DNA from: a virus
Lineage: Duplodnaviria; Heunggongvirae; Uroviricota; Caudoviricetes
Virus record (IMG/VR): IMGVR_UViG_3300042894_003937
Reading direction: 5' to 3' (one strand)
Length of the DNA: 25,074 nucleotides
Under the pieces are notes generated by a model that saw nothing but the letters and a program-made list of their open reading frames with translations, ran no database searches and was not told the DNA's origin. A program made the translations under genes and the position numbers. Shown here one piece after another: positions 8,809 through 22,672 of the stretch; within the stretch, counting starts at the first letter, position 1; each line of letters opens with the position of its first letter.

Positions 8809-9249
8809 ATGAAATATTTAAAACCATTTAATGAATCACTTAAAGAAGAAACTGAATTGTTACAGGAGTTCTGTGATCTTAACTTGGCTTATCTTGTTGA
8901 TGACGGTTTTAAAACTACAATAGAATCTGATAATTATTCAAAAAGTCTTTACTTTACTAAAAACTATGATGGTAGGTTGTATTATAGTGATACATTCGAG
9001 TGGGATGAAATCAAGAATACGTTTATTCCTTTTCTGACATTATTAGAAAGAAGATATGGTGAGTACTATAAATTAGGTGAAAGTAGATTTAGATTACTTA
9101 CGATAACGTATATTGAGTTTAATGATGCCGGTGAGAGAAATGGATTAAACACTGACAATATTTCATTAGATGATATAATAGATGTCAATGATGGTAATGT
9201 AGGTATTGATTCAATCGTATGTATAAAAATTACATTAAGAAAGAAATGA
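8809..9249 (+). CDS. N-tagged 'FCE..LAYL.D.GF' family paralog 1
   Basis: MKYLKPFNES; FCDLNLAYLVDDGF; FEWDEIKNTFIPFL. Confidence 0.85.
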   Translation: MKYLKPFNESLKEETELLQEFCDLNLAYLVDDGFKTTIESDNYSKSLYFTKNYDGRLYYSDTFEWDEIKNTFIPFLTLLERRYGEYYKLGESRFRLLTITYIEFNDAGERNGLNTDNISLDDIIDVNDGNVGIDSIVCIKITLRKK

Positions 9250-9668
9250 TGTATTTAAAACGTTTTAATGAAGCTTCTTTCTTACCAAAAGACATAAGTG
9301 AACTGCAATATTTTTGTGAGAATTATTTAGCTTATTTACTGGATGAAGGATTTGGTATTCGTGTTAGACATGGTTCTCGTGAAGATAGAGCTCGTATAGA
9401 GTTTTATAAAGATGATGTACACTTTCCAGTTCCTTTTAACTGGAATGATGTTAAAGATCATTATATTCCTTTTTATCAAATGCTATCTAAAGAATATGAG
9501 ATTAGTACAATGAGAAATTGTTCTGTTAAGTTTGAATATAGAAAACCTGCTAAACAATTATGGGAAACAGAAGCAAAATGGTTCACAGAAGAAGAAATAA
9601 TAAATGATGAAGTAGGTGACTTGGGTAGTTATGTTGGAGTCATTTCAATTTTCTTAGACAATAATTAA
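9246..9668 (+). CDS. Family paralog 2; start moved to 9246
   Basis: MMYLKRFNEAS; FCENYLAYLLDEGF; FNWNDVKDHYIPFY. ATGA overlap with the upstream gene. Confidence 0.85.
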   Translation: MMYLKRFNEASFLPKDISELQYFCENYLAYLLDEGFGIRVRHGSREDRARIEFYKDDVHFPVPFNWNDVKDHYIPFYQMLSKEYEISTMRNCSVKFEYRKPAKQLWETEAKWFTEEEIINDEVGDLGSYVGVISIFLDNN

Positions 9669-9677
9669 ATATAGATT

Positions 9678-9851
9678 ATGAAATACTTAAAAAGTTTTAA
9701 TGAAATGATTGAAGTACCAATCAAAGTTGGTGACACTGTTCTTTCGGGAAAATTCAAGAACAAGAAAGTCGTTGTTAAAAAGATTTCTAAAAATAAAAAA
9801 GGTGACATCACTATAAATGATAAACCATTATTAAGATTTAGAATAATATAA
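9678..9851 (+). CDS. 57-aa basic N-tagged protein
   Basis: Manual translation: MKYLKSFNEMIEVPIKVGDTVLSGKFKNKKVVVKKISKNKKGDITINDKPLLRFRII. TTAAATATA lies 4 nt upstream. Confidence 0.8.
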   Translation: MKYLKSFNEMIEVPIKVGDTVLSGKFKNKKVVVKKISKNKKGDITINDKPLLRFRII

Positions 9852-10040
9852 TTATAAACTTAGTAACTTATCTATTTGTTTCTTTCTAAACTCTGAAATT
9901 GATATAAATTGTTCACGTCTTCCGATTACACGTGGTCTTGAATCCCAACCATAAACATAAACATGAGTAGTGTACTCAGATGAGGCAGCATCGTATTTTT
10001 TACCGGTTCTTATATCAACTACTTTAAATGTTTGTCTCAT
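9852..10040 (-). CDS. Small beta protein with C-terminal tag; likely start 10040
   Basis: Ends QFISISEFRKKQIDKLLSL. Confidence 0.7.
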   Translation of the reverse strand: MRQTFKVVDIRTGKKYDAASSEYTTHVYVYGWDSRPRVIGRREQFISISEFRKKQIDKLLSL

Positions 10041-10041
10041 A

Positions 10042-10263
10042 TTACTCATCAAGTATTATATTTAATTTATCCTCTCTTGCTTGTTGTATTGATATAAATC
10101 TCTGTGGTCCATAAAGACCAGGGTTTCCAACATCATTTTTAATAGTTATCACACCATCATACTTAACCGCAAAAACTTCATATTGTTTTCCGATGGTTAG
10201 TGCTGGTTGATAATGAGTATCAGTGTTATTGATACAAACTATAAAATCTCCTTTATTGAACAT
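10042..10263 (-). CDS. SH3-like family protein with C-terminal tag; likely start 10263
   Basis: IVCINN...LTIGKQYEV...TIKNDVG...RFISIQQAREDKLNIILDE. Confidence 0.8.
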   Translation of the reverse strand: MFNKGDFIVCINNTDTHYQPALTIGKQYEVFAVKYDGVITIKNDVGNPGLYGPQRFISIQQAREDKLNIILDE

Positions 10264-10266
10264 ATA

Positions 10267-10274
10267 CAAATATA
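10267..10274 (-). promoter_or_regulatory. Bacteroidota -7 element TATATTTG
   Basis: Intergenic, only 3 nt before the ATG at 10263. Confidence 0.5.
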
Positions 10275-10278
10275 CAAA

Positions 10279-10518
10279 TTAAATTCCTAATTCATTTAAT
10301 TTTTTTTCACGTACTTCTTGTAAATCCTGGAATTGACTTGTATTTAAAGAAGCTGGATAATCATTTACTTTTCTATATTTATCATCATCACATTTCATGA
10401 TAAAAGATTTATGTGGTTTAAAATATGAATCATAAATAGTAGGACCTGCTTCTAGATCATAAATTTGACCAGCCGTTATAAAGTATCCGGGTAAAGTTTC
10501 TATAGCGACTAGTCTCAT
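10279..10518 (-). CDS. SH3-like family protein with C-terminal tag
   Basis: ITAGQIYDL...KCDDD...QFQDLQEVREKKLNELGI. Confidence 0.8.
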   Translation of the reverse strand: MRLVAIETLPGYFITAGQIYDLEAGPTIYDSYFKPHKSFIMKCDDDKYRKVNDYPASLNTSQFQDLQEVREKKLNELGI

Positions 10519-10522
10519 TTAT

Positions 10523-10687
10523 TTATTTTTTAGATGGTGTTACATGTAATTTGTACATACTTCCGTTGTAAACGATATAGCTTTGTTCAACTACATTAGT
10601 TTTTACCCATACTTGGGTTGTTCCTTCTTGACCTTCAAATGGTTTTGTTGTCAATTTTTCGTCTGTGATTTTAATAGTTCCTTTCAT
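10523..10687 (-). CDS. Hypothetical protein; start moved to 10687
   Basis: 54-aa ORF; the track start lies in the promoter. Confidence 0.6.
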   Translation of the reverse strand: MKGTIKITDEKLTTKPFEGQEGTTQVWVKTNVVEQSYIVYNGSMYKLHVTPSKK

Positions 10688-10697
10688 ATGTATTATA

Positions 10698-10705
10698 CAA
10701 AAATA
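10698..10705 (-). promoter_or_regulatory. Bacteroidota -7 element TATTTTTG
   Basis: 10 nt upstream of 10687; divergent from 10735. Confidence 0.5.
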
Positions 10706-10734
10706 CGACAATTAGTTTTACTAAAAAATATTTT

Positions 10735-10743
10735 TTATATATA
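10735..10743 (+). promoter_or_regulatory. Putative late promoter TTATATATA
   Basis: 4 nt before the ATG at 10748. Confidence 0.6.
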
Positions 10744-10747
10744 CTAA

Positions 10748-11167
10748 ATGAAGTACTTGAAAACATTTAACGAAGGTTTATCCGATTTAACTTATTTAGA
10801 GATTTTAGATTTTTGTGAAGAAAACTTAGCTTATTTAATGGATGATGGTTTTAATGTTAGTGTACAGTCTGATAGATTTATGGATGAAATAGATTGGGAA
10901 GTAAGATTGAGAAATGATGAGAATCTTAAATGGGATTATATTGAAAATCATTTAGTTCCGTTTTTTATACATTTAGATAAAGAATTTGAACTATGTAATA
11001 TATCCAGTACTCATTCAGAATTAGAATTTTTTGTACGAGAATATGGTATAAATCACGGTTATAAGTGGCTTTCTATAAAAGATTTACTAAATCATGAAGG
11101 TGATTATGATAAATTAGTCGGTAATGTAGTAGAAAGTATAACATTTTATATAAAAAGTAGAAAATAA
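10748..11167 (+). CDS. Family paralog 3
   Basis: MKYLKTFNEG; FCEENLAYLMDDGF; LKWDYIENHLVPFF. Confidence 0.85.
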   Translation: MKYLKTFNEGLSDLTYLEILDFCEENLAYLMDDGFNVSVQSDRFMDEIDWEVRLRNDENLKWDYIENHLVPFFIHLDKEFELCNISSTHSELEFFVREYGINHGYKWLSIKDLLNHEGDYDKLVGNVVESITFYIKSRK

Positions 11168-11592
11168 TGAGATATATTAAGACATTTGAAGCAGATAATT
11201 GGTGGGTTGATAAGGTTGATAAAACTGAATTAAAATCATTTGCGGAGTCATATTTAGCATATTTAATGGACGAAGGTTTTGTAATAGGTATAAATTTAGA
11301 TCGTCATGAAGATGATGCTGCGGTTGATTTACATTTAACTAATCCAGATAATACGATATATGAGAACGATATACCTTTTTTATGGGAAGATATAAAAGAT
11401 CATTTTATTCCGTTTATGACAATGTTTAGTAAGAAATATAGTTTTTCTGTTTTGAAGTTATATGCTTCTCCTGGTTCTGAGGTTAGATCATTTAGATCGG
11501 GAACTGATAGTTTATTCCGTTTATTATCCGATAGATTTGAAGTTGAAGAAGAGTTAAGAGAAATAGAAATAAGTAATATAAGAAGAGTATAA
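11167..11592 (+). CDS. Family paralog 4
   Basis: MRYIKTFEAD; FAESYLAYLMDEGF; FLWEDIKDHFIPFM. Confidence 0.85.
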   Translation: MRYIKTFEADNWWVDKVDKTELKSFAESYLAYLMDEGFVIGINLDRHEDDAAVDLHLTNPDNTIYENDIPFLWEDIKDHFIPFMTMFSKKYSFSVLKLYASPGSEVRSFRSGTDSLFRLLSDRFEVEEELREIEISNIRRV

Positions 11593-12053
11593 TGAAATAT
11601 TTAAAAAGATTTAACGAGTCTCGTCATGAAATACTTACCAATCCTAAAAGATTTACTTTTGAATTTCAGGAAGGGTTAAAAGATTTCTGTGAAACACATT
11701 TAGCTTATTTAGTTGATGATGGTTATTCAATTAAGGTTGCTACTAATACTATGTCATTAAAAAGATTTGATGAACAAAATGATAATCAAATTTATGCTAG
11801 TTTAGTTGATTGTGGTGAAGAGATTGTTGATACTATAGATGATCCACGTAACTTTAATTGGGATAATATAAAAAATAGTTTCATACCATTTATCCAACAC
11901 TTATCTAAACAATATAATATAGGTAAAATTTATGTGTATGGATATTCACAGAATGGTGAGGAAATGTTATCTTATACTTATACACTACAACAAGTATTAG
12001 ATGATGATAATATTGCACCAGTAATTTACTCTATATTTTTAAGGATTGACTAA
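11592..12053 (+). CDS. Family paralog 5
   Basis: MKYLKRFNES; FCETHLAYLVDDGY; FNWDNIKNSFIPFI. Confidence 0.85.
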   Translation: MKYLKRFNESRHEILTNPKRFTFEFQEGLKDFCETHLAYLVDDGYSIKVATNTMSLKRFDEQNDNQIYASLVDCGEEIVDTIDDPRNFNWDNIKNSFIPFIQHLSKQYNIGKIYVYGYSQNGEEMLSYTYTLQQVLDDDNIAPVIYSIFLRID

Positions 12054-12067
12054 CAATCCTTTTTTTA
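12041..12067 (+). terminator. Intrinsic terminator overlapping the paralog 5 stop
   Basis: AGGATTG-ACTAA-CAATCCT followed by a T-run. Confidence 0.75.
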
Positions 12068-12082
12068 TTTATATAATTTATG

Positions 12083-12090
12083 TATATTTG
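12083..12090 (+). promoter_or_regulatory. Bacteroidota -7 element TATATTTG
   Basis: Follows the terminator; 6 nt before the ATG at 12097; heads five tagged genes. Confidence 0.65.
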
Positions 12091-12096
12091 TAAATT

Positions 12097-12225
12097 ATGA
12101 AAGAAGAAAGTAAAACTTGGATAGAAGTAAAGCAATCACAACTTGATCTATTAAATAAAAAATTTGGTATTGCATTAAAGTTAGTTAAAAGAAAACAAGC
12201 TATTAGAAAATTATTTGGAATATGA
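12097..12225 (+). CDS. 42-aa protein, largely C-terminal tag
   Basis: Manual translation: MKEESKTWIEVKQSQLDLLNKKFGIALKLVKRKQAIRKLFGI. ATGA overlap with the next gene. Confidence 0.7.
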   Translation: MKEESKTWIEVKQSQLDLLNKKFGIALKLVKRKQAIRKLFGI

Positions 12226-12437
12226 AGTATGTAAAGTGTTTATATGTTGAAATTGGTTCAAGACTAACGGTAAATAAAATCTATGAAGTATTTAATCACC
12301 TTGTAATTGGTGATGATAGTTATGTTGAAATTATAGATAATACTGGTGATAGATCTACGTATTTAGTAAATAAAGATTGGTTTGAAGATGCGAGTGCAGA
12401 AATAAGAGATAAGAAATTAAATGATTTAGGAATATGA
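12222..12437 (+). CDS. SH3-like family protein with C-terminal tag
   Basis: VKCL...LTVNKIYEV...EIIDNTG...WFEDASAEIRDKKLNDLGI. Confidence 0.8.
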   Translation: MKYVKCLYVEIGSRLTVNKIYEVFNHLVIGDDSYVEIIDNTGDRSTYLVNKDWFEDASAEIRDKKLNDLGI

Positions 12438-12751
12438 AATTAAGTACTACAAACCAAACAATCAAAGATGATTTACAATCATTTGTAGATGGAACTTATG
12501 ATGGTATTTTAACACCAGAACAATTAAAAATGGCACTTGAATTATCATTCTTATTTAATCATATTACTACTGATATAGATACAATTATATTCGAGTATGA
12601 TACTTTTAAAGTAAAGGTTTCTGGTGTTCATGACTTACCTTTTGAGTACTCAGAGGAAACGGTTATACATACTATAATAAAAGAAGAAGGTTTTAAATCC
12701 GCATTAAAACAATTTATTAGAGATAATAGAATTACAAAATTATTACAATGA
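12434..12751 (+). CDS. Hypothetical protein with C-terminal tag
   Basis: Ends QFIRDNRITKLLQ. Confidence 0.75.
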   Translation: MKLSTTNQTIKDDLQSFVDGTYDGILTPEQLKMALELSFLFNHITTDIDTIIFEYDTFKVKVSGVHDLPFEYSEETVIHTIIKEEGFKSALKQFIRDNRITKLLQ

Positions 12752-13008
12752 TATTATCAAGAGATCAAAATTATAAAGTAGGAGACTTAGTAAATAACAC
12801 TAGTGTTCATATGAATGAGCAAGCAATTGTTTTAAAAGTTCATGAGAATGAAGGTTTCTATAGTAGATGTTTAATTGAGTATCAACATTCACTAACAGTT
12901 CAAGGAAGAAAAGTTCAAAGTTGGGTCAGTGCTAAAGATTTAAGATATGATTTACAATTTTTAAGAGATAAAAAGTTAGAAGTAATTTTACAATCTACAT
13001 CCTTATGA
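12748..13008 (+). CDS. KOW/Tudor-like small protein with C-terminal tag
   Basis: YKVGDLV...SWVSAKDL...FLRDKKLEVILQSTSL. Confidence 0.75.
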   Translation: MILSRDQNYKVGDLVNNTSVHMNEQAIVLKVHENEGFYSRCLIEYQHSLTVQGRKVQSWVSAKDLRYDLQFLRDKKLEVILQSTSL

Positions 13009-13184
13009 AACTATGTAAGATAACTGGACACTTTTGGAAACACAACTATGAACTTATAAAAAAGGATGATCCTATTTTAACAGAGGTTAGAATTTGTAGC
13101 TTTTGTAAAAGAAAAGATATTATAGTTGAACCAACTCTAGCAGATAAACGAGATATGAAGTTAAGACAATTAGGAATAAAGTAA
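13005..13184 (+). CDS. 59-aa putative Zn-binding (DUF1660-like) protein with C-terminal tag
   Basis: Manual translation: MKLCKITGHFWKHNYE...RICSFCKR...DKRDMKLRQLGIK. Confidence 0.75.
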   Translation: MKLCKITGHFWKHNYELIKKDDPILTEVRICSFCKRKDIIVEPTLADKRDMKLRQLGIK

Positions 13185-13211
13185 TTGGTTTACTATTTTA
13201 CCAACTCGTAT

Positions 13212-13562
13212 TTAATAGAAGAAGTCGTTAAAACTTGATTTTTTATTATAGTACTCTTTCTCTAATCTTTGTTGTTCTATCAACTGTTTTATTTTTTTCT
13301 CTTCAACTATAGCAGCAACTTTCTTATCACGTGCCAATACGGTCGTCGTATAACAATCTTTACTAATGTTATGACTTCTTGATACAACTGAATAAGATTC
13401 TTCACCTAAAGTGATTATTTCGTCTTTATTAGGTGTAGGTATTGGATAATCTGATTCAATTTCGGTAGTTATATCTTTAGAGACTAAATCTAATTTATAA
13501 TCTCTAATTTCATCTTTCTCAAGACCTTCATAATCAAACTCTATTTTTAATTTATACTTCAT
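13212..13562 (-). CDS. Hypothetical protein
   Basis: 116-aa ORF. Confidence 0.75.
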   Translation of the reverse strand: MKYKLKIEFDYEGLEKDEIRDYKLDLVSKDITTEIESDYPIPTPNKDEIITLGEESYSVVSRSHNISKDCYTTTVLARDKKVAAIVEEKKIKQLIEQQRLEKEYYNKKSSFNDFFY

Positions 13563-14067
13563 ATAGTAGTTGTCTTAATTTTAATTCTCTTAATAGTTTT
13601 GTATCTCCTTTTCTTTTGATGTAAGAAACTATTTGTTTATTTATTTCTTGTTCAGTTTTTTCAACCTTAAGCCAATCAGATTCTCTTTCATATCCGATAC
13701 TTGTTTTAAATATATCATCATGAAAACAATTTAGATTTACTCTAATAGATGGTAAGCCATCACCATTAAATTTATAGTCATTATGAAGATTGTTATATCT
13801 TTTACTATCATAGTAGTTTTCATCGATTTCATATCCCCATCCTTGTAGAAATGAAAATACTCTTTCAAAGAATTGTGATTTTGTTCGGTTGTATTGTTTA
13901 CTTACTTTTACTTCACCATTTAAAAATTCCATACCATAGGTACGACATTTATCAAACTTAGAGAAACGGACATTTGGATCCTCTGCGGATACTGATTTAT
14001 CAATCATATTTTTTATCCCCAGTTTATCATACATTTCTTTGATAGTAAGTATTCCTTTATCTTCCAT
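13552..14067 (-). CDS. Hypothetical protein with C-terminal tag
   Basis: Ends KLLRELKLRQLLYEV. Confidence 0.8.
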   Translation of the reverse strand: MEDKGILTIKEMYDKLGIKNMIDKSVSAEDPNVRFSKFDKCRTYGMEFLNGEVKVSKQYNRTKSQFFERVFSFLQGWGYEIDENYYDSKRYNNLHNDYKFNGDGLPSIRVNLNCFHDDIFKTSIGYERESDWLKVEKTEQEINKQIVSYIKRKGDTKLLRELKLRQLLYEV

Positions 14068-14513
14068 TATCCTAATAGTTCTTTTAATTTTTCATTACGT
14101 TCGATCATTGTTTTAAATTGTGGATCATTGAAAACCCATTCTCCAAAAACTTTTGAAGGTACACGTCTTACTCTACAATTATCATTTTCCTGATAGGTGT
14201 AGGTTGCAGTAGTTCTATCCCAAGATTTACTGAATACTTTTACGGTAACTGATTTTTTATTTTTTCTAATAACTCTAACTTTATCTTTTGGATGTAGACC
14301 ACCTTGGTATCCAGTTTTACTATCAAACTGAATTACTTCATCTTTGTTTATATGGTCAACAACTATTTCAAAAACTGCTTGTTTCTTTTCTAACTCAATA
14401 GATTTATTTTGTTCTTGAAGTTGAAAAATTTCACTTTGTAGTTTTCTAATCTGTTTAAAATTAGATTTAATTTTTGCTTGTGTTTCGTTATACCTAACAA
14501 TTATCTCGTTCAT
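14067..14513 (-). CDS. Coiled-coil plus beta-domain protein with C-terminal tag
   Basis: N-terminal heptad-like helix; ends IERNEKLKELLG. Confidence 0.8.
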   Translation of the reverse strand: MNEIIVRYNETQAKIKSNFKQIRKLQSEIFQLQEQNKSIELEKKQAVFEIVVDHINKDEVIQFDSKTGYQGGLHPKDKVRVIRKNKKSVTVKVFSKSWDRTTATYTYQENDNCRVRRVPSKVFGEWVFNDPQFKTMIERNEKLKELLG

Positions 14514-15315: not shown

Positions 15316-15316
15316 A

Positions 15317-15597: not shown

Positions 15598-17064
15598 ATG
15601 AGAAAAAAGAAGATACTAATAGGTATTACGACATTCAATGAATCGTATCAACCGACCAGTTTTCATTTTAAGGTAGATGAAACTGGAGAAAGAATCTATG
15701 ATGATCATAGATTAAATATAGTTCAAGAGAACTTAAAAACCATTTATAATATGATTGATGATGTTAGAATAATGTCAAATATAAACATATTAGACATTCA
15801 GAATAATATAAATGTTAAAACTGTTCCTAATCCTACTACTGAAATAATTGGATTATTTGCATCAAAAATGTTTGAATCAATTGGTGTATTTTTTATGGCA
15901 GGAACTCCAGCTGGTATTATCGCAACAATTGTAGGTAAACTAGTAAGTGCAATAATTACAACAGCTTGTAGAGCAGCATCTGGTGATGCAACAAATGATA
16001 TTCAGAGAGCGGTTAATGATATTAAAAATTGTATGAATGCGATCTTTAATGAAATACAAGTAAGGGTTACACATTGGTTACAAAATATGGAATTAGAGTG
16101 GAATAAAGTTTATCATTGTAATGGTGATTTAGTTCCTGAAATGAAAGGTGATGTAACACTTAGTGATTTAGGTAATTGTGATTGGTTTTTCCCAAAGAAA
16201 GGAGAGTCAGAAGATTATATTACTATTCGTAACTTTCTAACTAAAAAATGTAACTATTTAATTACTCGTGATTTACTTCCAGTTAAATGGAAAATAAAAC
16301 AATGTTACAGAGCATTTCCATCGGATGGATTTGGAAATTTATTATCTGGATGGAATACTTGTTGGTATAAAGTACGTAATAGAAGTACTTGGGATAGTTG
16401 GTGTTCACATTCTGATTTTCCTAATGCCATACCTAATAATTTAAGAGGTGATATAGAAGGTCCATTTGAAGACATCGAAAAAGGAAGTAATTATGATACA
16501 GATGCAAATGGTAACATTTATTATTATCAATGGTGGCCAAAGTGGAATGGTTTAGATGGACCTCGTTATAATTGGGCTAATGAAACGCCTCGTTGGACGA
16601 ATTGGTCTGGTAAGAGTGATAGAGTTGAGAAACCAAATCAGGATATAGTATCAGGTACTTCATTCTTAGATTTTATTAAAGATATATTAGATGGACATTA
16701 TTTTGCAGATACATTGGTATCAGGTTCATTCCCAAATGAACCATCATACTTTTTATGGTATGAAACAAAAAGACCTAATGAGAATGTAAAAATTATAAAT
16801 GATAAAAGAAAATGGACATTACTAAGTAATGAAGCTTGTAAAGACATTGTTTATGATAGTAATAGTATATTCACTTGGGGTAGAGCTTATAGAGGAATTA
16901 AACTAAATCATTATTACTTAGTTGATGAAAAAGGCGATTATGCACCAAGTGTTTTTTGTGATTGGTTATTCTCGGATGATGGTCATGGTAATATAAAAAA
17001 TGAAAATGGTATAGCTGGTAAAATTGATGTTTATATGAATTGGGGATTATCAAAAGTAAATTAA
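15598..17064 (+). CDS. 488-aa protein: helical N-domain with hydrophobic hairpin plus Trp/Tyr-rich C-domain
   Basis: IGVFFMAGTPAGIIATIVGKLVSAIITTA flanked by amphipathic helices; Trp-rich second half. No family recognised. Confidence 0.85.
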   Translation: MRKKKILIGITTFNESYQPTSFHFKVDETGERIYDDHRLNIVQENLKTIYNMIDDVRIMSNINILDIQNNINVKTVPNPTTEIIGLFASKMFESIGVFFMAGTPAGIIATIVGKLVSAIITTACRAASGDATNDIQRAVNDIKNCMNAIFNEIQVRVTHWLQNMELEWNKVYHCNGDLVPEMKGDVTLSDLGNCDWFFPKKGESEDYITIRNFLTKKCNYLITRDLLPVKWKIKQCYRAFPSDGFGNLLSGWNTCWYKVRNRSTWDSWCSHSDFPNAIPNNLRGDIEGPFEDIEKGSNYDTDANGNIYYYQWWPKWNGLDGPRYNWANETPRWTNWSGKSDRVEKPNQDIVSGTSFLDFIKDILDGHYFADTLVSGSFPNEPSYFLWYETKRPNENVKIINDKRKWTLLSNEACKDIVYDSNSIFTWGRAYRGIKLNHYYLVDEKGDYAPSVFCDWLFSDDGHGNIKNENGIAGKIDVYMNWGLSKVN

Positions 17065-17067
17065 ATT

Positions 17068-17096
17068 AAAGTGTCGAATTTGTCGACACTTTTTTT
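17068..17096 (+). terminator. Intrinsic terminator abutting the next late promoter
   Basis: AAAGTGTCGA-ATTTG-TCGACACTTT followed by a T-run. Confidence 0.85.
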
Positions 17097-17104
17097 AATA
17101 TATA
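17096..17104 (+). promoter_or_regulatory. Putative late promoter TAATATATA
   Basis: 4 nt before the ATG at 17109. Confidence 0.65.
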
Positions 17105-17108
17105 AGTT

Positions 17109-17558
17109 ATGAGAACAATTAAATTATTTGAGGATTTTAATACTCCACAAGATTTCATAAAGGAGTTAAAAGATTTCTGTGAAATGTATTTAGCTTACTT
17201 AATAGATGAAGGATTTGAGGTAAACGTAATAAATATGATGCATGATGCTGATTTAGTATTAAGTATAGAAAAGATTTCATCATTTACTAATTATACTGAT
17301 GGCCCACATGGAACACGTATTATTGATAATAGTTTTAAATGGAGTGAAGTTTCGGATCATTTTATACCATTTTTTCAAATGTTATCAAAAGAATATTATT
17401 TAGTAAAAAATAGATATACATTTGGAACTATTAATCTTAGAGAAGAAATGACTGTCGGTAGAAGAACAGGTTGGACTTGGAAAAATTATGATAATATAGA
17501 AGGTTTAGATCCTGATAAAAAGATTGATAAAATACAAATAACAATAAAAGTAGAATGA
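17109..17558 (+). CDS. Family paralog 6
   Basis: MRTIKLFEDF; FCEMYLAYLIDEGF; FKWSEVSDHFIPFF. Confidence 0.85.
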   Translation: MRTIKLFEDFNTPQDFIKELKDFCEMYLAYLIDEGFEVNVINMMHDADLVLSIEKISSFTNYTDGPHGTRIIDNSFKWSEVSDHFIPFFQMLSKEYYLVKNRYTFGTINLREEMTVGRRTGWTWKNYDNIEGLDPDKKIDKIQITIKVE

Positions 17559-18244
17559 CATTAAACGAAAAGGATAAAATAAGAGTTATTTCTTTCTTAG
17601 AAGATAATGAATTAGATTATACACCTATTGATAATGGTATAATCCGTTTTCACCTTATTGCTGAGGATGGTATGACTTTTTATGTAATAAACAATGAAAA
17701 TGAGTATTTAGTAACTAAATATAACAAGGATAGAGACCGTCCAGGATCAGTTCCTTATGAAAACTATCAATTTAAGACACTTTCAGAGGTTTTAGAGCAA
17801 TTAAAGTTCTATGATAGTAATTTACCTAAGGTATACTGGCAACCTATCTTAGAAACGATAGAAATAGGTTTCGATAAAGATAATCATATAGATAACTGGT
17901 ATGAACCATTTATTAAAGATGATTTCTATAAAGTAGAAGAAGATAATCAATATAAATACTTTTCTTATACAAATGAAGGTTATAAACCAGAATTGATTTC
18001 ACCTTTTAATACTTTACACGAAGTAAGTGCATTTAATGACTTACAATTAGAAAAAGTTGAAAAGTTATATTTTGAAGTACATCCAATTTCGTGTGCTAAG
18101 AAACGTGAAATGTATTTAGTAAAGTTGTTATGTAATAATGATAACATTTTCAAAGAGTATATAAACTATAAAGTTTATAAAGAAAAAGGATTAAAAATAA
18201 TGTTGGATAGTTTATTCAATGATATGGAAAAATATAAACTGTAA
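17555..18244 (+). CDS. Acidic, Tyr-rich hypothetical protein
   Basis: 229-aa ORF translationally coupled on both sides; carries neither tag. Confidence 0.8.
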   Translation: MTLNEKDKIRVISFLEDNELDYTPIDNGIIRFHLIAEDGMTFYVINNENEYLVTKYNKDRDRPGSVPYENYQFKTLSEVLEQLKFYDSNLPKVYWQPILETIEIGFDKDNHIDNWYEPFIKDDFYKVEEDNQYKYFSYTNEGYKPELISPFNTLHEVSAFNDLQLEKVEKLYFEVHPISCAKKREMYLVKLLCNNDNIFKEYINYKVYKEKGLKIMLDSLFNDMEKYKL

Positions 18245-18738
18245 TGAAGTATTTAAAAACATTTGAAATGATTGACTTTAATGACATTTTTAGTTTAAAT
18301 GGATCACGAGCTAAAAGAGAAGAACTTACAGATTTTTGTGAGACATATTTAGCTTACCTTATGGATGATTCTATAAAAGAATTAAAAGTTAGTAAACCTC
18401 AATTATTACAAACAGAGAAATATGTTTGTTATAATGTAGAAATATACTTTAATAAAAGTGTACACTGGAACCAAATCAAAGATCATTTTCTACCATTTCT
18501 TCAAATGGTTCAAAAAGAATATGATTTTAGAGAAGATAATATAGGAAGAATGTGTTCAATTGGTTGGAGGATAAAAGATACTTTAACTACAGCTAAACAA
18601 TACACTTTAAAACAATTATTAGATGATAAAATAGAAACTAATTTTACTTTAGAATTGGGATATGGTCATAAAGTATCTATACAAGGTAATGTTGGTTCAA
18701 TAAAATTAGAAATCTTAGAAGAAGTAGAAAAAAACTAA
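18244..18738 (+). CDS. Family paralog 7
   Basis: MKYLKTFEMI; FCETYLAYLMDD; VHWNQIKDHFLPFL. Confidence 0.85.
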   Translation: MKYLKTFEMIDFNDIFSLNGSRAKREELTDFCETYLAYLMDDSIKELKVSKPQLLQTEKYVCYNVEIYFNKSVHWNQIKDHFLPFLQMVQKEYDFREDNIGRMCSIGWRIKDTLTTAKQYTLKQLLDDKIETNFTLELGYGHKVSIQGNVGSIKLEILEEVEKN

Positions 18739-18745
18739 CTCCTTC

Positions 18746-19057
18746 TTAGATTTCTTTTAAACCATTAAAAACAATTTTCTTGTAATCACAATCGATAAAA
18801 GCTCTTTTCACTTTATCTCCTTGACCACCTCTCCATTGATTTTCATTAAACCATTGTGCAAACTTAACAAGTTGTGTTCTAGTGATAAGTCCAAACTCTT
18901 CTGGATAATCTAAAATATATTTTTGTGAAAACTCTCTTGGTTCAGGAATAAGTTCTAATGTTTGAGACCAACGAGAAACCCCGTCTTCTGTATTATACCA
19001 TCTATAACCTCTATCATACTTATGTACTTCAGGTAACTTTCCGTCTATTATATTCAT
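18746..19057 (-). CDS. Hypothetical protein; start moved to 19057
   Basis: MNIIDGKLPE...; the track start lies in the promoter. Confidence 0.7.
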   Translation of the reverse strand: MNIIDGKLPEVHKYDRGYRWYNTEDGVSRWSQTLELIPEPREFSQKYILDYPEEFGLITRTQLVKFAQWFNENQWRGGQGDKVKRAFIDCDYKKIVFNGLKEI

Positions 19058-19076
19058 ACTTTTAATTTTAGAACTA

Positions 19077-19084
19077 CAAATATA
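19077..19084 (-). promoter_or_regulatory. Bacteroidota -7 element TATATTTG
   Basis: 19 nt upstream of 19057. Confidence 0.65.
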
Positions 19085-19116
19085 CAAACTTTATTTTAAA
19101 ATAAAATATAATTTTC

Positions 19117-19434
19117 ATGACAAATTATGATTTAATTCTTAGTACAGAATATAAGTATTTAATTTACTTAGTGGAAGAACTAAATAAATTAGAAGCAACT
19201 TTTAAGAAACTAGCAGCTGATAGAGATGTTAAATTAACTTTTATTTTAAAAGAAGATGCAAGTGAAGGTTATCATAGTGCAATTGATATGTTAGATAAAA
19301 TTAAGTCACAGATAAATGATTTAGATATTTATCAATTGGCTTCTGCTGAATTAGAAGATATAGGTGATATGATAAATAAATTAGTCAATTATTATGAATA
19401 CTTTTCTAAAGCGTGTGAAGAAATAAAAGTATAA
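19117..19434 (+). CDS. All-helical hypothetical protein
   Basis: 105-aa ORF; TAAAATATA variant 6 nt upstream. Confidence 0.7.
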   Translation: MTNYDLILSTEYKYLIYLVEELNKLEATFKKLAADRDVKLTFILKEDASEGYHSAIDMLDKIKSQINDLDIYQLASAELEDIGDMINKLVNYYEYFSKACEEIKV

Positions 19435-19442
19435 TTTAATTT

Positions 19443-19451
19443 TAATATATA
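19443..19451 (+). promoter_or_regulatory. Putative late promoter TAATATATA
   Basis: 4 nt before the ATG at 19456. Confidence 0.65.
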
Positions 19452-19455
19452 CTTT

Positions 19456-19791
19456 ATGAAACACTTAAAACAATTTGAAAGTTATTTTGATAAAGATTCT
19501 CATTGGACTGAGCCAGAAGGAGATGCAATTTTAAAAGCCTTTGATGAAGGTACAATTGAAGAAGCAACTAAAGAGGTTGAAGTAAAACCTACATATCGTG
19601 CAACTGGTGATACTACTGAAACAACATTTAGATTTAAAATTAATGATAGACAAATCTTTGTTCAACTTTTAGAATACCCACATAGAGATCCAATTATCGT
19701 TATTAAAATTGATGGTTACTTTACAACTATACCAACAGATAGTGAGTATCGTACTGAGATACTAGATAGATGCTTCAAAACAATACAATAA
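19456..19791 (+). CDS. N-tagged hypothetical protein (not a family paralog)
   Basis: Starts MKHLKQFESY. Confidence 0.8.
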   Translation: MKHLKQFESYFDKDSHWTEPEGDAILKAFDEGTIEEATKEVEVKPTYRATGDTTETTFRFKINDRQIFVQLLEYPHRDPIIVIKIDGYFTTIPTDSEYRTEILDRCFKTIQ

Positions 19792-19817
19792 AAAAATCCA
19801 CTTTAAAGTGGATTTTT
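19792..19817. terminator. Bidirectional terminator (perfect 26-bp palindrome)
   Basis: AAAAATCCACTTT/AAAGTGGATTTTT between convergent genes. Confidence 0.9.
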
Positions 19818-19820
19818 CTG

Positions 19821-19940
19821 TTATACTAATTCTGCTTTTGCTTTAGCAAGAACAATTTCATTTTGTTTAATTCTTCTAAGTTTTTTAACTTGGTTAGCTC
19901 TGTTCTTTTTAGGTTTCCCTTCTTTTTTTGATTTTGACAT
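19821..19940 (-). CDS. 39-aa highly basic peptide
   Basis: Manual translation: MSKSKKEGKPKKNRANQVKKLRRIKQNEIVLAKAKAELV. Has its own promoter and terminator. Confidence 0.7.
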   Translation of the reverse strand: MSKSKKEGKPKKNRANQVKKLRRIKQNEIVLAKAKAELV

Positions 19941-19961
19941 AATAAGTGAGTAATTTTCTTT

Positions 19962-19970
19962 TATATATTA
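19962..19970 (-). promoter_or_regulatory. Putative late promoter TAATATATA (minus strand)
   Basis: 21 nt upstream of the ATG at 19940. Confidence 0.6.
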
Positions 19971-19981
19971 AAAAAATTATT

Positions 19982-19989
19982 TAATTTTG
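19982..19989 (+). promoter_or_regulatory. Bacteroidota -7 element TAATTTTG
   Basis: Upstream of the 20001/20010 starts. Confidence 0.55.
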
Positions 19990-20000
19990 CACTTAAACAA

Positions 20001-20462
20001 ATGTATAATATGATACTAAAATGTATAACTCATGACTTTCCAGGTAGAGTTACTTATGGAAAAGAATATAAAGTAATTGAGGTAAATAAAGACAATTACT
20101 ATATAGTTGGAGATGATAATAAAGTGGCTACGGTCGCACCTAATTCATTTAATAAATACTTTGTTGATTTAGTAGAATGGAGAGAAAGACAAATAGAAAA
20201 AATAACTAAACACACAATGAGCAACTTACTAACTTACAATGATTATTTAGTTTCTAATTTAGAAACTGTTTTAGATTATGTTAAAACAAACGAATGTATA
20301 TTCAATATTAAACATTTGAATGATCTAATTACTGATATTTCAGATCAAACTGATAGTTCTAAATTAGATTTCTATGGTGAACAAGTAGATATGATAATTT
20401 CAAATGTAACTCATGAGTTTGGATATAATCATCGACTTGAGCATAAAAAAAGATTATGTTAA
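20001..20462 (+). CDS. SH3-like domain with internal tag fused to a second domain (starts at 20001 or 20010; internal ATG at 20217)
   Basis: LKCIT...VTYGKEYKV...IVGDDN...YFVDLVEWRERQIEKI, then MSNLLTY... Confidence 0.75.
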   Translation: MYNMILKCITHDFPGRVTYGKEYKVIEVNKDNYYIVGDDNKVATVAPNSFNKYFVDLVEWRERQIEKITKHTMSNLLTYNDYLVSNLETVLDYVKTNECIFNIKHLNDLITDISDQTDSSKLDFYGEQVDMIISNVTHEFGYNHRLEHKKRLC

Positions 20463-20489
20463 TTGTATATAGAAATCAGTAGAAAAAAA

Positions 20490-20522
20490 TACCATTCACT
20501 TCACATAGTGGGTGGTAATTTT
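20490..20522 (+). terminator. Hairpin terminator with two G-U pairs
   Basis: TACCATTCACT-TCACAT-AGTGGGTGGTA, then A and a short T-run. Confidence 0.6.
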
Positions 20523-20564
20523 ATTACGTGGAGAACCTTTGTAAGGAAATTAAAAATCAAAAGA

Positions 20565-20573
20565 TTATATATA
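20565..20573 (+). promoter_or_regulatory. Putative late promoter TTATATATA
   Basis: 4 nt before the ATG at 20578. Confidence 0.6.
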
Positions 20574-20577
20574 GTAT

Positions 20578-21033
20578 ATGATTTATATAAAACTCTTTGA
20601 TAATTTTAATCCAAATCACTATGTTATAAGCTCTGATAAAATAGATGAAAGTTTATTGAATGGAATCGAAGCAATACTTGCACCGATAAGTGATGATGGT
20701 TACAAGTACAGTCATTATATTTATGATAGGGATAAGGTTTACAATGATAAAAAAAGGTTAGAGATAAGTATTTATGTAGAAGGTGAAGATACTTTTACGG
20801 AAAAATCTAATATTATTATCGGTTCTGAAATAAAAGAAGCGGTACTTACTTTACTTGATTTTTTGAAAAGAAGAACTGGAAATGAAGCAAGTATTTATGT
20901 TTGGGATGATAGTGAGTATCAATTCATTGATATGAAGGATACTGATACACACGGTCTTGAAGATCTTGATGATTTAAGAGAGGAATATGCAGAAACTGAC
21001 TCTATGAAAATAGTTGTCTTATTGGACTCCTAA
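20578..21033 (+). CDS. N-tagged acidic protein, possibly a distant family paralog
   Basis: MIYIKLFDNF; IEAILAPISDDGYKY resembles LAYLxDxGF. Confidence 0.8.
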   Translation: MIYIKLFDNFNPNHYVISSDKIDESLLNGIEAILAPISDDGYKYSHYIYDRDKVYNDKKRLEISIYVEGEDTFTEKSNIIIGSEIKEAVLTLLDFLKRRTGNEASIYVWDDSEYQFIDMKDTDTHGLEDLDDLREEYAETDSMKIVVLLDS

Positions 21034-21097
21034 TCCTTTAATTATCAAATAGAGTTGATTTTTTATTTTGTGTAAGAAGTAAATTAAAATAAAAATT

Positions 21098-21106
21098 TAA
21101 TATATA
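21098..21106 (+). promoter_or_regulatory. Putative late promoter TAATATATA
   Basis: 16 nt upstream of the ATG at 21123. Confidence 0.6.
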
Positions 21107-21122
21107 AAAATAAAAACTTAAT

Positions 21123-21380
21123 ATGAAATACATAAAACTATTTGAAAACTTTATGGATGGAAACAAAGTCCAGTATAAAGCTGTTAAAAATTCAGAAGGT
21201 AAGTGGGAAATTCACATGAAAAATCCTAATCAAAATGAATTTAGTCTACCAACTAGTGGTACTTTATGGACAAATGATGGTAAATACTATAACTCTGAAG
21301 GAGATGCCATTAATGTTATTAAAAGTCAAACTAATGAAGATGAGCTTGATGGAGACACCGAATTAGATACAATTGAATGA
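21123..21380 (+). CDS. N-tagged hypothetical protein
   Basis: Starts MKYIKLFENF. Confidence 0.8.
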   Translation: MKYIKLFENFMDGNKVQYKAVKNSEGKWEIHMKNPNQNEFSLPTSGTLWTNDGKYYNSEGDAINVIKSQTNEDELDGDTELDTIE

Positions 21381-21403
21381 TTTAAGAGAGATATAGTTTT
21401 TTA

Positions 21404-21679
21404 TTAGACTCCTAAATCTTCTAACTTTTCATTTCTAATTTCTTGTAAAACAAAAGCTTCTATTCCTTCCAACTCAACTAATTCTTTGGAATGTTTTATT
21501 CCGGTTTTATCAATTACAATAGTGTAAACACAATCATCTTTGGTGAAAGATATAAGTTTCATTTCACCATTATTTATACCACCGTATCTTGATTTAACTT
21601 CATATTTCATATGAAACTGATCATCAATAAACTTCAATAAAATTGGTGCAGTTTCTTCGGTAAGCCAATTATAAATCAT
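21404..21679 (-). CDS. Hypothetical protein with C-terminal tag
   Basis: Ends EIRNEKLEDLGV. Confidence 0.75.
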   Translation of the reverse strand: MIYNWLTEETAPILLKFIDDQFHMKYEVKSRYGGINNGEMKLISFTKDDCVYTIVIDKTGIKHSKELVELEGIEAFVLQEIRNEKLEDLGV

Positions 21680-21681
21680 AA

Positions 21682-22140
21682 TTAAAATTTATGTTCAACT
21701 GAAAAGGTTTGACCAGCAACTACTAAAACACTTTTCTCAAATTTTACACCATCATTATTTACAAATTTAATTTGGTGTGCACCGGGAGTAACCTTCACTT
21801 TTGTTTTTGGAGTTGAACCTAATACTTTACCATCTAAAACAACTTTTGCTGAAGGAGTACAATTTATATTTATATAACCAACAGGTTCCCTTTGAAACAT
21901 CTTACTAACTTTTCTAAATAGTGATATAAAGATTACACCTAAAATTCCAATTGCTACTAATCCAATTACGAGTGATAAATAAAGTGCGATACCACCCCAT
22001 AAAGGTGCTGTTACCCACCACCAAGACCAGTTTGCAACTTGTCCTACTCCACCAAGTTTAAGACCTAAGAATAAAAGGAAAAGTAATCCGGCAAAGCTGA
22101 TACCATTTGATTGTTGTTGTTTTGTTATAGTTTTCTTCAT
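21682..22140 (-). CDS. Membrane protein (GISF..LKL...WSWWWV.APLW family) fused to a C-terminal PEGA domain
   Basis: TM motif plus GYININCTPSAKVVLDGKVLGSTP...VTPGAHQIKFVN...V.V.AGQT. Confidence 0.75.
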   Translation of the reverse strand: MKKTITKQQQSNGISFAGLLFLLFLGLKLGGVGQVANWSWWWVTAPLWGGIALYLSLVIGLVAIGILGVIFISLFRKVSKMFQREPVGYININCTPSAKVVLDGKVLGSTPKTKVKVTPGAHQIKFVNNDGVKFEKSVLVVAGQTFSVEHKF

Positions 22141-22177
22141 TTTTATTTTATTATATTTTATTAAAAAGTTGATTTAG

Positions 22178-22185
22178 CAAATATA
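22178..22185 (-). promoter_or_regulatory. Bacteroidota -7 element TATATTTG
   Basis: Upstream of 22140; divergent from 22197. Confidence 0.6.
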
Positions 22186-22196
22186 GTAAATTATTT

Positions 22197-22205
22197 TAAT
22201 ATATA
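22197..22205 (+). promoter_or_regulatory. Putative late promoter TAATATATA
   Basis: 5 nt before the ATG at 22211. Confidence 0.65.
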
Positions 22206-22210
22206 CTAGT

Positions 22211-22672
22211 ATGAGATATTTAAAAAGATTTAATGAATCACAAGATGGTTTTAAAGAACAATTACGAGATTTTTGTGAGACTCACTTGGCTTACTTATTA
22301 GATGAAGGATTTGAAATAGTTTTAATAGATTTAGATGAATCTTATGATTGTGAGATTAGTGTTAGAAGAGAGGATAAAAGAACATTTACTTGGAATGAAG
22401 TTAAAAATCATATTGTACCTTTCATAATACATCTTAATAAAGAATATAAATTATATAAAAGTAAAGATGAACATCCACCTTATGTAAAGGTTGGTGACAT
22501 TGGTTATATTCAATCCGAACTTTCTACTTTATATGAACCATTCTCAATAGAAAAGATTTCTGATGAGAGTTATGAACCTTTCTTACGTTATAAAATTGGA
22601 CCTGATGAGTATAAAAATGATATGGGTGCAAGATTATCATCTATTGTAATTTATGCAGCTATAGCAAACTAA
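22211..22672 (+). CDS. Family paralog 8
   Basis: MRYLKRFNES; FCETHLAYLLDEGF; FTWNEVKNHIVPFI. Confidence 0.85.
   Translation: MRYLKRFNESQDGFKEQLRDFCETHLAYLLDEGFEIVLIDLDESYDCEISVRREDKRTFTWNEVKNHIVPFIIHLNKEYKLYKSKDEHPPYVKVGDIGYIQSELSTLYEPFSIEKISDESYEPFLRYKIGPDEYKNDMGARLSSIVIYAAIAN

What the first reader, a model, noticed from the sequence alone, without database searches (positions are those of the whole stretch)
8809..22672. N-terminal MKYLKxF(N)E tag resembling the T4 capsid-targeting propeptide
Seen at 8809, 9246, 9678, 10748, 11167, 11592, 17109, 18244, 19456, 20578, 21123 and 22211. Looser variants occur at 3421 (MNIVKYSEFQYINEE) and 15598 (MRKKKILIGITTFNES). The tag sits on at least four unrelated bodies, so it is a portable module. 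Established: T4 internal protein IPIII has a 10-aa capsid-targeting sequence MKTYQEFIAE that is removed by the gp21 prohead protease after Glu, and T4 IPI* is an injected inhibitor of the GmrSD nuclease. Inference: these are internal head proteins injected with the DNA, possibly forming a large counter-defence arsenal.
Basis: partly seen in the sequence, partly recalled or inferred. Interest (0 to 1): 0.75.

Follow-up and report, generated by a model that had tools for sequence, protein, structure and literature searches.

The report
Portable capsid-address tag, huge phage
Twelve genes in this stretch of a very large bacterial virus start with the same nine-residue peptide on several unrelated proteins; it most likely works like phage T4's signal for loading proteins into the virus head, but packaging and cleavage have not been shown.

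Summary
All 12 ORFs start with M-[KR]-[YH]-[LI]-K-x-F-[NE]-E/N. No other window protein comes close, and the two "looser variants" (3421, 15598) score as background. Eight, probably nine, of the 12 are paralogs of one ~150-aa family; three have other bodies. In three related virus contigs plus the window, 57 tagged proteins fall into 41 BLAST-unrelated groups. Some families have tagged and untagged members.

Selection acts on the peptide, not the DNA. The tag occurs only at N-termini and AlphaFold2 predicts it disordered. The exact DNA form was absent from 596 Gb of prokaryote genomes.

A syntenic relative carries, on one contig, a T4-type portal, a Gp23 capsid protein and a gp21-like protease fused to a scaffold. 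Hydrophobic-x-Glu motifs like the tag's end (FNE|S, LFE|N) sit at the likely capsid propeptide boundary and at the column of T4 gp21's ITE-S. A promoter-like motif precedes both tagged operons and head genes.

Best reading: a T4-CTS-like capsid-targeting leader (about 0.55). Injection and counter-defence are unsupported, and the cargo is acidic, unlike T4's basic internal proteins.

This scan noted the same tag earlier in other windows of this genome. I found no paper describing it.

The parts
8809..9249 (+). Tagged gene, Fam-A paralog (MKYLKPFNE|S), first gene of an operon
9246..9668 (+). Tagged gene, Fam-A paralog (MMYLKRFNE|A). Start overlaps the upstream stop (ATGA). No promoter motif of its own.
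9678..9851 (+). Tagged 57-aa basic protein (MKYLKSFNEM), body unrelated to Fam-A
10748..11167 (+). Tagged gene, Fam-A paralog (MKYLKTFNE|G), first gene of an operon
11167..11592 (+). Tagged gene, Fam-A paralog (MRYIKTFEAD), operon-internal
11592..12053 (+). Tagged gene, Fam-A paralog (MKYLKRFNE|S). In relatives its ortholog is the second domain of a 300-aa fusion whose junction keeps [LIV]NE[AS] but lacks MKYLKxF.
17109..17558 (+). Tagged gene, Fam-A paralog (MRTIKLFEDF). It lies in a segment absent from the syntenic relative.
18244..18738 (+). Tagged gene, Fam-A paralog (MKYLKTFEMI), operon-internal
19456..19791 (+). Tagged 111-aa protein (MKHLKQFESY) with a different body. Its homologs carry an FE-type tag, an FNES-type tag, or no tag.
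20578..21033 (+). Tagged 151-aa protein (MIYIKLFDNF), probably a very distant Fam-A member
21123..21380 (+). Tagged 85-aa acidic protein (MKYIKLFENF) with a different body, absent from two relatives
22211..22672 (+). Tagged gene, Fam-A paralog (MRYLKRFNE|S). This one was modelled: residues 1-9 disordered, helix from residue 10.
8796..8803 (+). Promoter-like motif [AT]ATATATA, 13 nt upstream of the tagged operon start. The same motif occurs at 10735, 17097, 19444, 20565, 21099 and 22198 before tagged genes, and at 3392, 6922 and 15585 before untagged large genes.

Best explanation
The nine to ten N-terminal residues M-[KR]-[YH]-[LI]-K-x-F-[NE]-[EN] form a portable protein-level address label of a clade of huge phages with T4-type heads (probable Bacteroidota hosts).

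Proposed mechanism:
1. Tagged genes are transcribed with the head genes from a phage-specific [AT]ATATATA promoter.
2. The basic, amphipathic leader (Y3, L4, F7) docks the protein onto the scaffolding core. The core is built from a gp21-like protease fused to a scaffold with 10-12 acidic 14-residue repeats.
3. The prohead protease then cuts after the Glu of F-N-E|S or L-F-E|N. The mostly small, acidic cargo stays inside the capsid and could leave with the DNA.

Shown here: the tag exists, is strictly N-terminal, is selected as a peptide, is portable and is restricted to viruses. The lineage has the T4-type portal, protease-scaffold and capsid genes. Similar hydrophobic-x-Glu motifs sit at conserved positions in the capsid protein and protease. 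The promoter-like motif is shared with head genes.

Inferred only: binding to the scaffold, cleavage, presence in the virion, ejection and any function of the cargo.
For: Tag as a separable peptide module:
- Only at N-termini: 70 of 1576 N-termini against 1 of 4937 internal Met peptides.
- 57 tagged proteins fall into 41 BLAST-unrelated groups.
- An ASCH domain starts at residue 13, right after a tag.
- An LRR-like family has tagged members and members that begin just after the tag position.
- The 19456 body occurs with two tag subtypes and without a tag.
- Synonymous codons in the tag vary as much as or more than genome-wide, e.g. TAC 42% against 12%.
- Four tagged genes sit inside operons without the promoter motif.
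- AlphaFold2 puts residues 1-9 below pLDDT 50 while the body averages 80.
- The exact DNA form gives 21 IMG/VR hits, all at ORF starts, and 0 in 596 Gb of prokaryote genomes.

T4-type head machinery in the lineage:
- Loci L005 (syntenic with the window) and L090 lie on one JGI contig. L090 carries Portal_T4, a 715-aa protease-scaffold protein and a Gp23 capsid protein.
- Pfam and PHROG hits support these assignments in related genomes.
- T4 gp21 residues H85 and S140 are invariant in the alignment.

Candidate cleavage motif:
- The capsid protein has [FY]HSINE|NAY in 118 of 120 homologs. In distant relatives P2 varies while hydrophobic P3 and Glu P1 are kept.
- [LI]NE-S at the end of the protease domain aligns with T4 gp21 ITE187-S188.
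- Two independent two-domain fusions keep NE[AS] at the junction while losing MKYLKxF.

Co-regulation: the promoter-like motif is enriched before tagged genes (Fisher p = 3e-4 in the window) and precedes the capsid, protease-scaffold and portal genes in related genomes.

T4 precedent: the CTS is 10 residues; positions 4 and 7 matter for targeting and 8 and 10 for processing at L/I-X-E (PMC9026906).
Against: - There are no virion, cleavage or ejection data for any member, and no cultured phage with the tag was found. Tenacibaculum phage PTm1, which has a similar protease-scaffold, has none.
- The window's own genome is not held, so the protease was shown only in a close syntenic relative.
- The cargo is acidic (85% or so below pI 6), unlike T4's basic internal proteins.
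- P3 of the FNE form is Phe and of some FE forms Thr or Gln, which is not the classic Leu/Ile.
- NES could be kept at fusion junctions as a helix cap of the Fam-A domain rather than as a cut site.
- The 735-kb relative has the same scaffold repeats but no hit to the strict tag pattern, so scaffold repeats and tag do not strictly co-occur.
- The capsid-protein site does not align with T4's E65 site.
- The promoter motif is AT-rich and is common upstream of genes in some of the genomes (18-39% of untagged genes in three related contigs).
Confidence: 0.55

Rival explanations
1. The tag is a docking peptide for another shared partner that has nothing to do with the capsid interior. Candidates are a phage chaperone, a protease or adaptor that times degradation, a localisation factor, or an attachment site on the outside of the virion.
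For: Portability, N-terminal position, predicted disorder and virus restriction fit any peptide-partner system. The acidic cargo is unlike T4 internal proteins. Some tagged proteins carry a hydrophobic segment after the tag (G003 93037). The tag is missing from relatives that share the same scaffold repeats.
Against: No candidate partner was identified. The match between the tag's end and the hydrophobic-x-Glu motifs of the capsid protein and protease would be a coincidence, as would the shared promoter motif with head genes.
Confidence: 0.25
2. There is no separate function. The motif is simply the conserved N-terminus of one large, fast-diverging protein superfamily whose bodies have drifted beyond recognition.
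For: Nine of the 12 window examples are one family, and in that family the N-terminal half is the best-conserved part. Most bodies are small proteins with no known relatives.
Against: The tag is found on an ASCH domain that starts at residue 13, on an LRR-like family and on a body whose Atlas structure matches bacterial proteins from residue 13 on (a lead only). Tag-less homologs exist in two families. The linker between the tag and the first helix is variable in length, and the tag is predicted disordered.
Confidence: 0.08
3. The conservation is at the nucleic-acid level. It would be an AT-rich 5' coding signal for translation initiation on short-leader or leaderless late mRNAs in a host without Shine-Dalgarno use, or part of a mobile promoter cassette that spreads by recombination.
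For: The codons are almost all A/T. The promoter-like motif sits only 12-13 nt before many tagged ATGs, so leaders would be very short. Cassette-like indels of tagged genes occur between relatives.
Against: Synonymous sites vary freely and are even enriched in C-ending codons, while the residues Y/H3, L/I4, K5 and F7 are fixed. Tagged genes inside operons lack the promoter. Untagged genes (15598, 3421, 6951) use the same promoter motif.
Confidence: 0.05

Closest known systems
[quoted passage not shown]
   Same: It is a roughly 10-residue N-terminal leader on otherwise unrelated small proteins. M1, K2 and F7 are shared, position 4 is hydrophobic or aromatic, and there is a Glu at the end preceded by hydrophobic-x. 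The genome lineage has gp20-, gp21- and gp23-type head genes. Tagged genes lie in plastic, indel-rich regions, like the T-even internal-protein locus (PMC3012670, PMC9026906).
   Different: The consensus is different (KYLKxFNE against KTYQEFIAE) and one residue shorter. P3 is Phe or variable rather than Leu/Ile. The cargo is acidic rather than highly basic. There are dozens of tagged genes per genome rather than three or four. Protease and scaffold are one fused 700-800-aa protein. No experimental evidence exists.
Propeptides of phiKZ, 201phi2-1 and SPN3US head and inner-body (ejection) proteins, cut by gp175/gp245-type proteases
   Same: Very large phages load many different proteins into the head. 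A gp21-related protease cuts after Glu at a three-residue motif (PMC9026906, PMC7411985).
   Different: Those propeptides are long and not one shared short tag, and their motif is S/A/G-x-E. The protease here matches both Pfam S77 and S80 weakly, and the capsid protein here is Gp23-type.
PeSL mobile regulatory cassettes of T4-type phages
   Same: Small ORFan genes with their own promoter lie in plastic regions, with presence/absence differences between relatives.
   Different: The conserved element here is a peptide under amino-acid selection. It also occurs on operon-internal genes that lack the promoter.

Membership tests
T4-type capsid targeting sequence system | Short shared N-terminal peptide on otherwise unrelated proteins | tested here: met
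   57 tagged proteins fall into 41 BLAST-unrelated groups. Tagged and tag-less homologs exist..
T4-type capsid targeting sequence system | Hydrophobic or aromatic residues at positions 4 and 7, which carry targeting in T4 (PMC9026906) | tested here: met
   Position 4 is L/I/V/M in all 57 tags and position 7 is Phe in all 57. F7 is invariant in Fam-A. Caveat: the 57 were picked with a pattern that requires these residues, so this is partly by construction.
T4-type capsid targeting sequence system | The leader ends in an L/I-X-E site for the prohead protease | tested here: inconclusive
   Glu is at position 8 or 9 in 52 of 57 tags, with Asp at 8 in 5. P3 is Phe (FNE form) or Leu/Thr/Gln (xFE form). 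The motif resembles the candidate capsid-protein site INE|N and the protease site LNE|S. Cleavage was not observed.
T4-type capsid targeting sequence system | A gp21-family prohead protease with the catalytic His and Ser, plus a scaffolding core, in the genome | tested here: met
   Shown in a syntenic relative on the same contig as the tagged array, not in the window's own genome, which is not held. H85 and S140 of T4 gp21 are invariant in the alignment. phrog_207 E = 2.6e-31 and S77/S80 Pfam hits in related genomes.
T4-type capsid targeting sequence system | Sequence similarity to MKTYQEFIAE | tested here: inconclusive
   Only M1, K2, F7 and a terminal Glu are shared. The peptide is too short for a statistical test. 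The CTS sequence is taken from PMC8442874.
T4-type capsid targeting sequence system | Cargo is highly basic internal protein | tested here: not met
   Median pI of the cargo after tag removal is 4.6-4.9, and 56-91% have pI below 6. Caveat: the T4 CTS also loads acidic foreign proteins such as GFP (PMC9026906).
T4-type capsid targeting sequence system | Proteins are packaged in proheads, processed, and ejected with the DNA | not testable with these tools
   This needs virions of a tag-bearing phage. None is cultured as far as the searches show.
phiKZ-like head propeptides | Cleavage motif S/A/G-X-E and long, non-shared propeptides | tested here: not met
   P3 in the tag is F, L, T or Q, and the leader is one short shared peptide.
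Sec or lipoprotein signal peptides | Hydrophobic core of about 10 or more residues after a basic N-region | tested here: not met
   The tag is followed by polar or acidic linkers. True signal peptides in the window (1-444, 5851-6213) look different.
PeSL-type promoter cassette | The conserved element is the DNA promoter and stem-loop that travels with the ORF | tested here: not met
   Operon-internal tagged genes lack the promoter motif, and synonymous sites are not conserved.

The most novel reading that the evidence does not exclude
The tag is a readable address label that marks the whole capsid-delivered protein set of a clade of 600-kb-class phages. That would be dozens of mostly acidic, fast-evolving small proteins per genome. 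They would dock on the 14-residue repeats of a protease-scaffold fusion, be released by cleavage after F-N-E or L-F-E, and be injected as a very large, diversifying host-takeover or anti-defence arsenal.
Probability: 0.3. Interest if true: 0.8.

Novelty: new variant of a known kind. Interest (0 to 1): 0.66.

Why it matters
- If the tag is a capsid-targeting leader, a simple sequence rule would list the head-loaded, and possibly injected, proteins of uncultured huge phages straight from metagenomes. At present that needs virions and mass spectrometry.
- It would show that the T4 targeting-and-trimming logic scaled up to dozens of cargo species in genomes about four times the size of T4.
- It would point to families such as Fam-A, which has no relative of known structure, as candidates for early host takeover or anti-defence.
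- The tag could also serve as a handle for loading foreign proteins into phages of Bacteroidota.

Tried and rejected
Searches that gave nothing:
- The window's own genome is not held.
- An exact 45-mer from the window is not in IMG/VR.
- Megablast of the window and tblastn of Fam-A against cultured and deposited phages found nothing.
- The search for related loci with Fam-A failed in IMG/VR.
- Metagenome loci could not be opened as whole records.

Fam-A fold:
- Foldseek against PDB and BFVD gave nothing at E <= 0.001.
- The VIA wide search gave at best Z = 6.7 to generic two-layer alpha/beta folds, within the tool's stated background. The fold remains unassigned.

Annotation of tagged bodies:
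- Pfam and PHROG gave nothing for Fam-A, 19456, 3421, 15598 or 17555.
- Of ten tagged bodies from related genomes, only the ASCH domain was confident.

Ideas rejected:
- 3421 (MNIVKYSEFQYINEE) and 15598 (MRKKKILIGITTFNES) are not tags in register. 15598 looks by eye like the start of a glycosyltransferase strand; this was not tested.
- Strict co-occurrence of scaffold repeats with the tag does not hold, because the 735-kb phage has the repeats but no hit to the strict pattern.
- The candidate capsid-protein site does not align with T4's E65 site.

Literature: two searches found no description of this tag.


Full report
**What the window is**

The window is 28% GC and densely coding. Genes on the minus strand and many small genes are preceded by TAnnTTTG-type elements. 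From my own knowledge, that is the promoter form of Bacteroidota. No whole genome is held for the window.

Homologs of its proteins occur only in metagenomes, on contigs up to 648,731 bp. A gp23-type capsid protein from a syntenic relative is 72% identical to those of the published uncultured huge phages LR745206 (635 kb) and LR756502 (642 kb). It is 29% identical to the Lak phages and 28% to Tenacibaculum phage PTm1. So the window comes from a 600-kb-class phage with a T4-type head.

**Checking the observation**

- All 12 listed coordinates are ORF starts and carry M-[KRIM]-[YHT]-[LI]-K-x-F-[NED].
- 9246 starts at an ATGA stop/start overlap with the preceding gene.
- A position matrix built from 57 tags separates the window's proteins cleanly. 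The tagged starts score 19-27 bits and every other start scores -21 or lower. The two "looser variants" fall in the background: 3421 at -36.5 and 15598 at -34.6.
- In the window plus three related virus contigs, 70 of 1576 N-termini reach 10 bits, against 1 of 4937 internal Met-started peptides.
- A degenerate DNA pattern for the tag gives 6-29 hits per related genome. The reversed pattern gives none.

**How many different bodies carry the tag**

Inside the window, eight tagged proteins are clear paralogs (BLASTP E from 1e-11 to 1e-22). I call this family Fam-A. Its layout is:

- the tag;
- a linker of variable length;
- a helix with DFCExxLAYLxDDGF;
- a block with FxWxxIKxHFIPF.

20578 is probably a very distant member (hhalign probability 23% over 84 columns). 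19456 and 21123 share only the tag with Fam-A, and 9678 had no BLAST hit to any Fam-A member. So "at least four unrelated bodies" is just met in the window, and the window overstates the diversity.

Outside the window the case is much stronger:

- 57 strictly tagged proteins from the window and from contigs G001 (640 kb, complete), G002 and G003 fall into 41 BLAST-unrelated groups once the first 12 residues are removed.
- One tagged protein is an ASCH domain whose Pfam match begins at residue 13.
- An LRR-like family in G002 has ten strictly tagged members and two that begin exactly where the tag would end.
- The 19456 body has homologs with an FE-type tag, with an FNES-type tag, and one with a different 44-residue N-terminus and no tag.
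- An Atlas structure match for another tagged body aligns bacterial proteins from residue 13 onward. This is a lead only.

**Peptide or DNA signal?**

- Synonymous codons within the tag vary at least as much as elsewhere in these genomes. Tyr3 is TAC in 42% of tags against 12% genome-wide, and Asn9 is AAC in 61% against 16%. The residues themselves are fixed.
- Four tagged genes (9246, 11167, 11592, 18244) sit inside operons, with no promoter motif and with overlapping or abutting stop/start codons.
- AlphaFold2 on a 53-sequence Fam-A alignment gives mean pLDDT 80. Residues 1-9 are below 50 and the first helix starts at residue 10.
- The exact DNA form ATGAAATATTTAAAANNNTTTAATGAA occurs 21 times in IMG/VR, every time at an ORF start on varied bodies. 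It occurs 0 times in 596 Gb of bacterial and archaeal genomes.

The tag is therefore a virus-restricted, N-terminal peptide module.

**Is there a T4-like head and protease?**

- Locus L005 is syntenic with window 10042-24978; most shared genes are 50-99% identical.
- L005 lies on JGI contig Ga0492778_0000040. The same contig holds L090, which carries Portal_T4, a 715-aa protein and a Gp23 capsid protein.
- The 715-aa protein and its homologs in G001-G003 match head maturation protease phrog_207 (E = 2.6e-31) and Pfam S77/S80.
- Aligned with T4 gp21 taken from NC_000866, H85 and S140 are invariant. These are the proposed catalytic residues (my own knowledge).
- The protease domain is fused to 9-11 copies of a 14-residue acidic repeat (NIAYSEYLAENLDK-like) and a C-terminal domain. 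It is therefore a protease-scaffold fusion, as annotated in phage PTm1.

**A candidate cleavage rule**

T4 gp21 cuts after Glu at L/I-X-E (PMC9026906). Several sites here fit that rule:

- The capsid protein carries [FY]HSINE-NAY near residue 45 in 118 of 120 homologs.
- In more distant huge phages the same position reads QMNE-N, QIHE-N or ELYE-N. P2 drifts while the hydrophobic P3 and Glu P1 stay.
- At the end of the protease domain all homologs have [LI]NE-S. That column aligns with ITE187-S188 of T4 gp21, where E187 and S188 are invariant columns. T4 gp21 is known to be processed at its C-terminus (PMC9026906).
- A further K[LI]NE-S follows the repeats.

The tag ends in F-N-E-[SGA] or in [LTQ]-F-E-[NSD].

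In two independent sets of two-domain Fam-A fusions the internal junction has lost MKYLKxF. It keeps [LIV]NE[AS] in 15 proteins and xNES in 4, at the equivalent position. This fits a split between a targeting part and a processing part, as in T4 where positions 4 and 7 target and positions 8 and 10 process. It could equally be a helix cap of the Fam-A domain.

**Co-regulation**

- An [AT]ATATATA motif lies 12-13 nt before six of the seven tagged operon starts and 24 nt before the seventh. It lies 12-29 nt before three large untagged genes, one of which looks like a collagen-repeat tail fibre.
- It is enriched before tagged genes: Fisher p = 3e-4 in the window and 0.004-0.03 in G001-G003.
- It precedes the capsid and protease-scaffold genes in all three related genomes and in L090, and also the portal gene in G002.
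- It resembles the T4 late promoter TATAAATA (my own knowledge). "Late" timing is an inference, and the motif is AT-rich and common.

**Mechanism proposed**

The tagged proteins are made together with the head proteins. They bind the scaffolding core through the basic amphipathic leader. The protease trims them after the Glu, and they remain in the capsid. I put this at about 0.55.

Points that weaken it:

- There are no experimental data.
- The cargo is acidic (median pI 4.6-4.9), while T4 internal proteins are highly basic (PMC8442874).
- P3 is often not Leu or Ile.
- The 735-kb relative has the repeats but no strict tag.
- The capsid-protein site does not align with T4's E65.

Injection and counter-defence are plausible by analogy with IPI* (PMC3012670) and with the indel-rich setting, but nothing here tests them. 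Fam-A has no convincing structural relative.

**Distribution**

- The tag is present in LR745206 (29 strict hits), LR756502 (20), LR756504 (18), G001-G005 and many IMG/VR fragments.
- It is absent, by the strict pattern, from LR756501 (735 kb), LR756500, Lak-B5 and PTm1.

**Novelty**

Two literature searches found no description of this tag. Earlier agents of this scan noted the same tag in other windows of this same genome and reached a similar partial verdict.

- the same-contig link to a T4-type head module;
- the shared hydrophobic-x-Glu motif at aligned protease and capsid-protein positions;
- the fusion-junction observation;
- the codon test;
- the acidic-cargo contrast.

I class it as a new variant of a known kind.

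Noticed in passing
window 9852-24978, C-termini of about 17 small proteins (e.g. 10279-10518, 12097-12225, 12222-12437, 13005-13184, 21404-21679, 23563-23841): Many small proteins end in a similar helix-like tail ([RK][DE]xKL[NxD]xL[GL][IVK]). None of them carries the N-terminal tag, so the two labels are mutually exclusive in this window.
   Followed up: partly
L005:1519-2421, L001:1292-2197 and proteins P0241-P0261: Two-domain fusions of Fam-A occur in relatives. The junction keeps [LIV]NE[AS] or xNES but lacks MKYLKxF. In the window the second domain is the separate gene 11592-12053.
   Followed up: yes
L090:3767-5914, and homologs in G001, G002, G003, LR745206, LR756502, LR756504 and LR756501: The prohead protease is fused to a scaffold made of 9-11 tandem 14-residue acidic repeats (consensus about NIAYSEYLAENLDK), followed by an acidic low-complexity stretch and a C-terminal domain. 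PTm1 and LR756500 lack these repeats.
   Followed up: partly
window 865-1116, 10042-10269, 22930-23142 (possibly also 14804-15100, 20001-20462, 23563-23841): A second small paralog family starts with a 'xxVCINxxxxxxxxGKxYE'-like strand pair. These genes are expressed from host-type TAnnTTTG promoters.
   Followed up: no
window 14577-17558 and 21123-21380: These segments are absent from the otherwise syntenic relative L005. They include the tagged genes 17109 and 21123 and the 488-aa gene 15598, so the tagged gene set differs between close relatives by insertion or deletion.
   Followed up: partly
window 1936-2607 (-), 6951-8432 (+), 21682-22140 (-): A pirin-like bicupin gene (Pfam Pirin, E = 1.6e-23), a collagen-repeat tail-fibre-like protein (phrog_5073), and a PEGA-domain protein with an N-terminal membrane segment.
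   Followed up: no
tagged proteins of the window, G001, G002 and G003: Tagged cargo is strongly acidic: median pI is 4.6-4.9 against 5.7-6.8 for untagged proteins. The one exception in the window is the basic 57-aa protein at 9678.
   Followed up: partly
L090:7815-8207 and G003 158465-158857 (the gene just downstream of the capsid gene): This 130-aa protein starts MRLKKYSQFNES, a shifted tag-like N-terminus ending in FNE-S. Window 3421 starts MNIVKYSEFQYINEE. A looser 'KYSxF...NE' class may exist, but it did not score with the tag matrix.
   Followed up: partly
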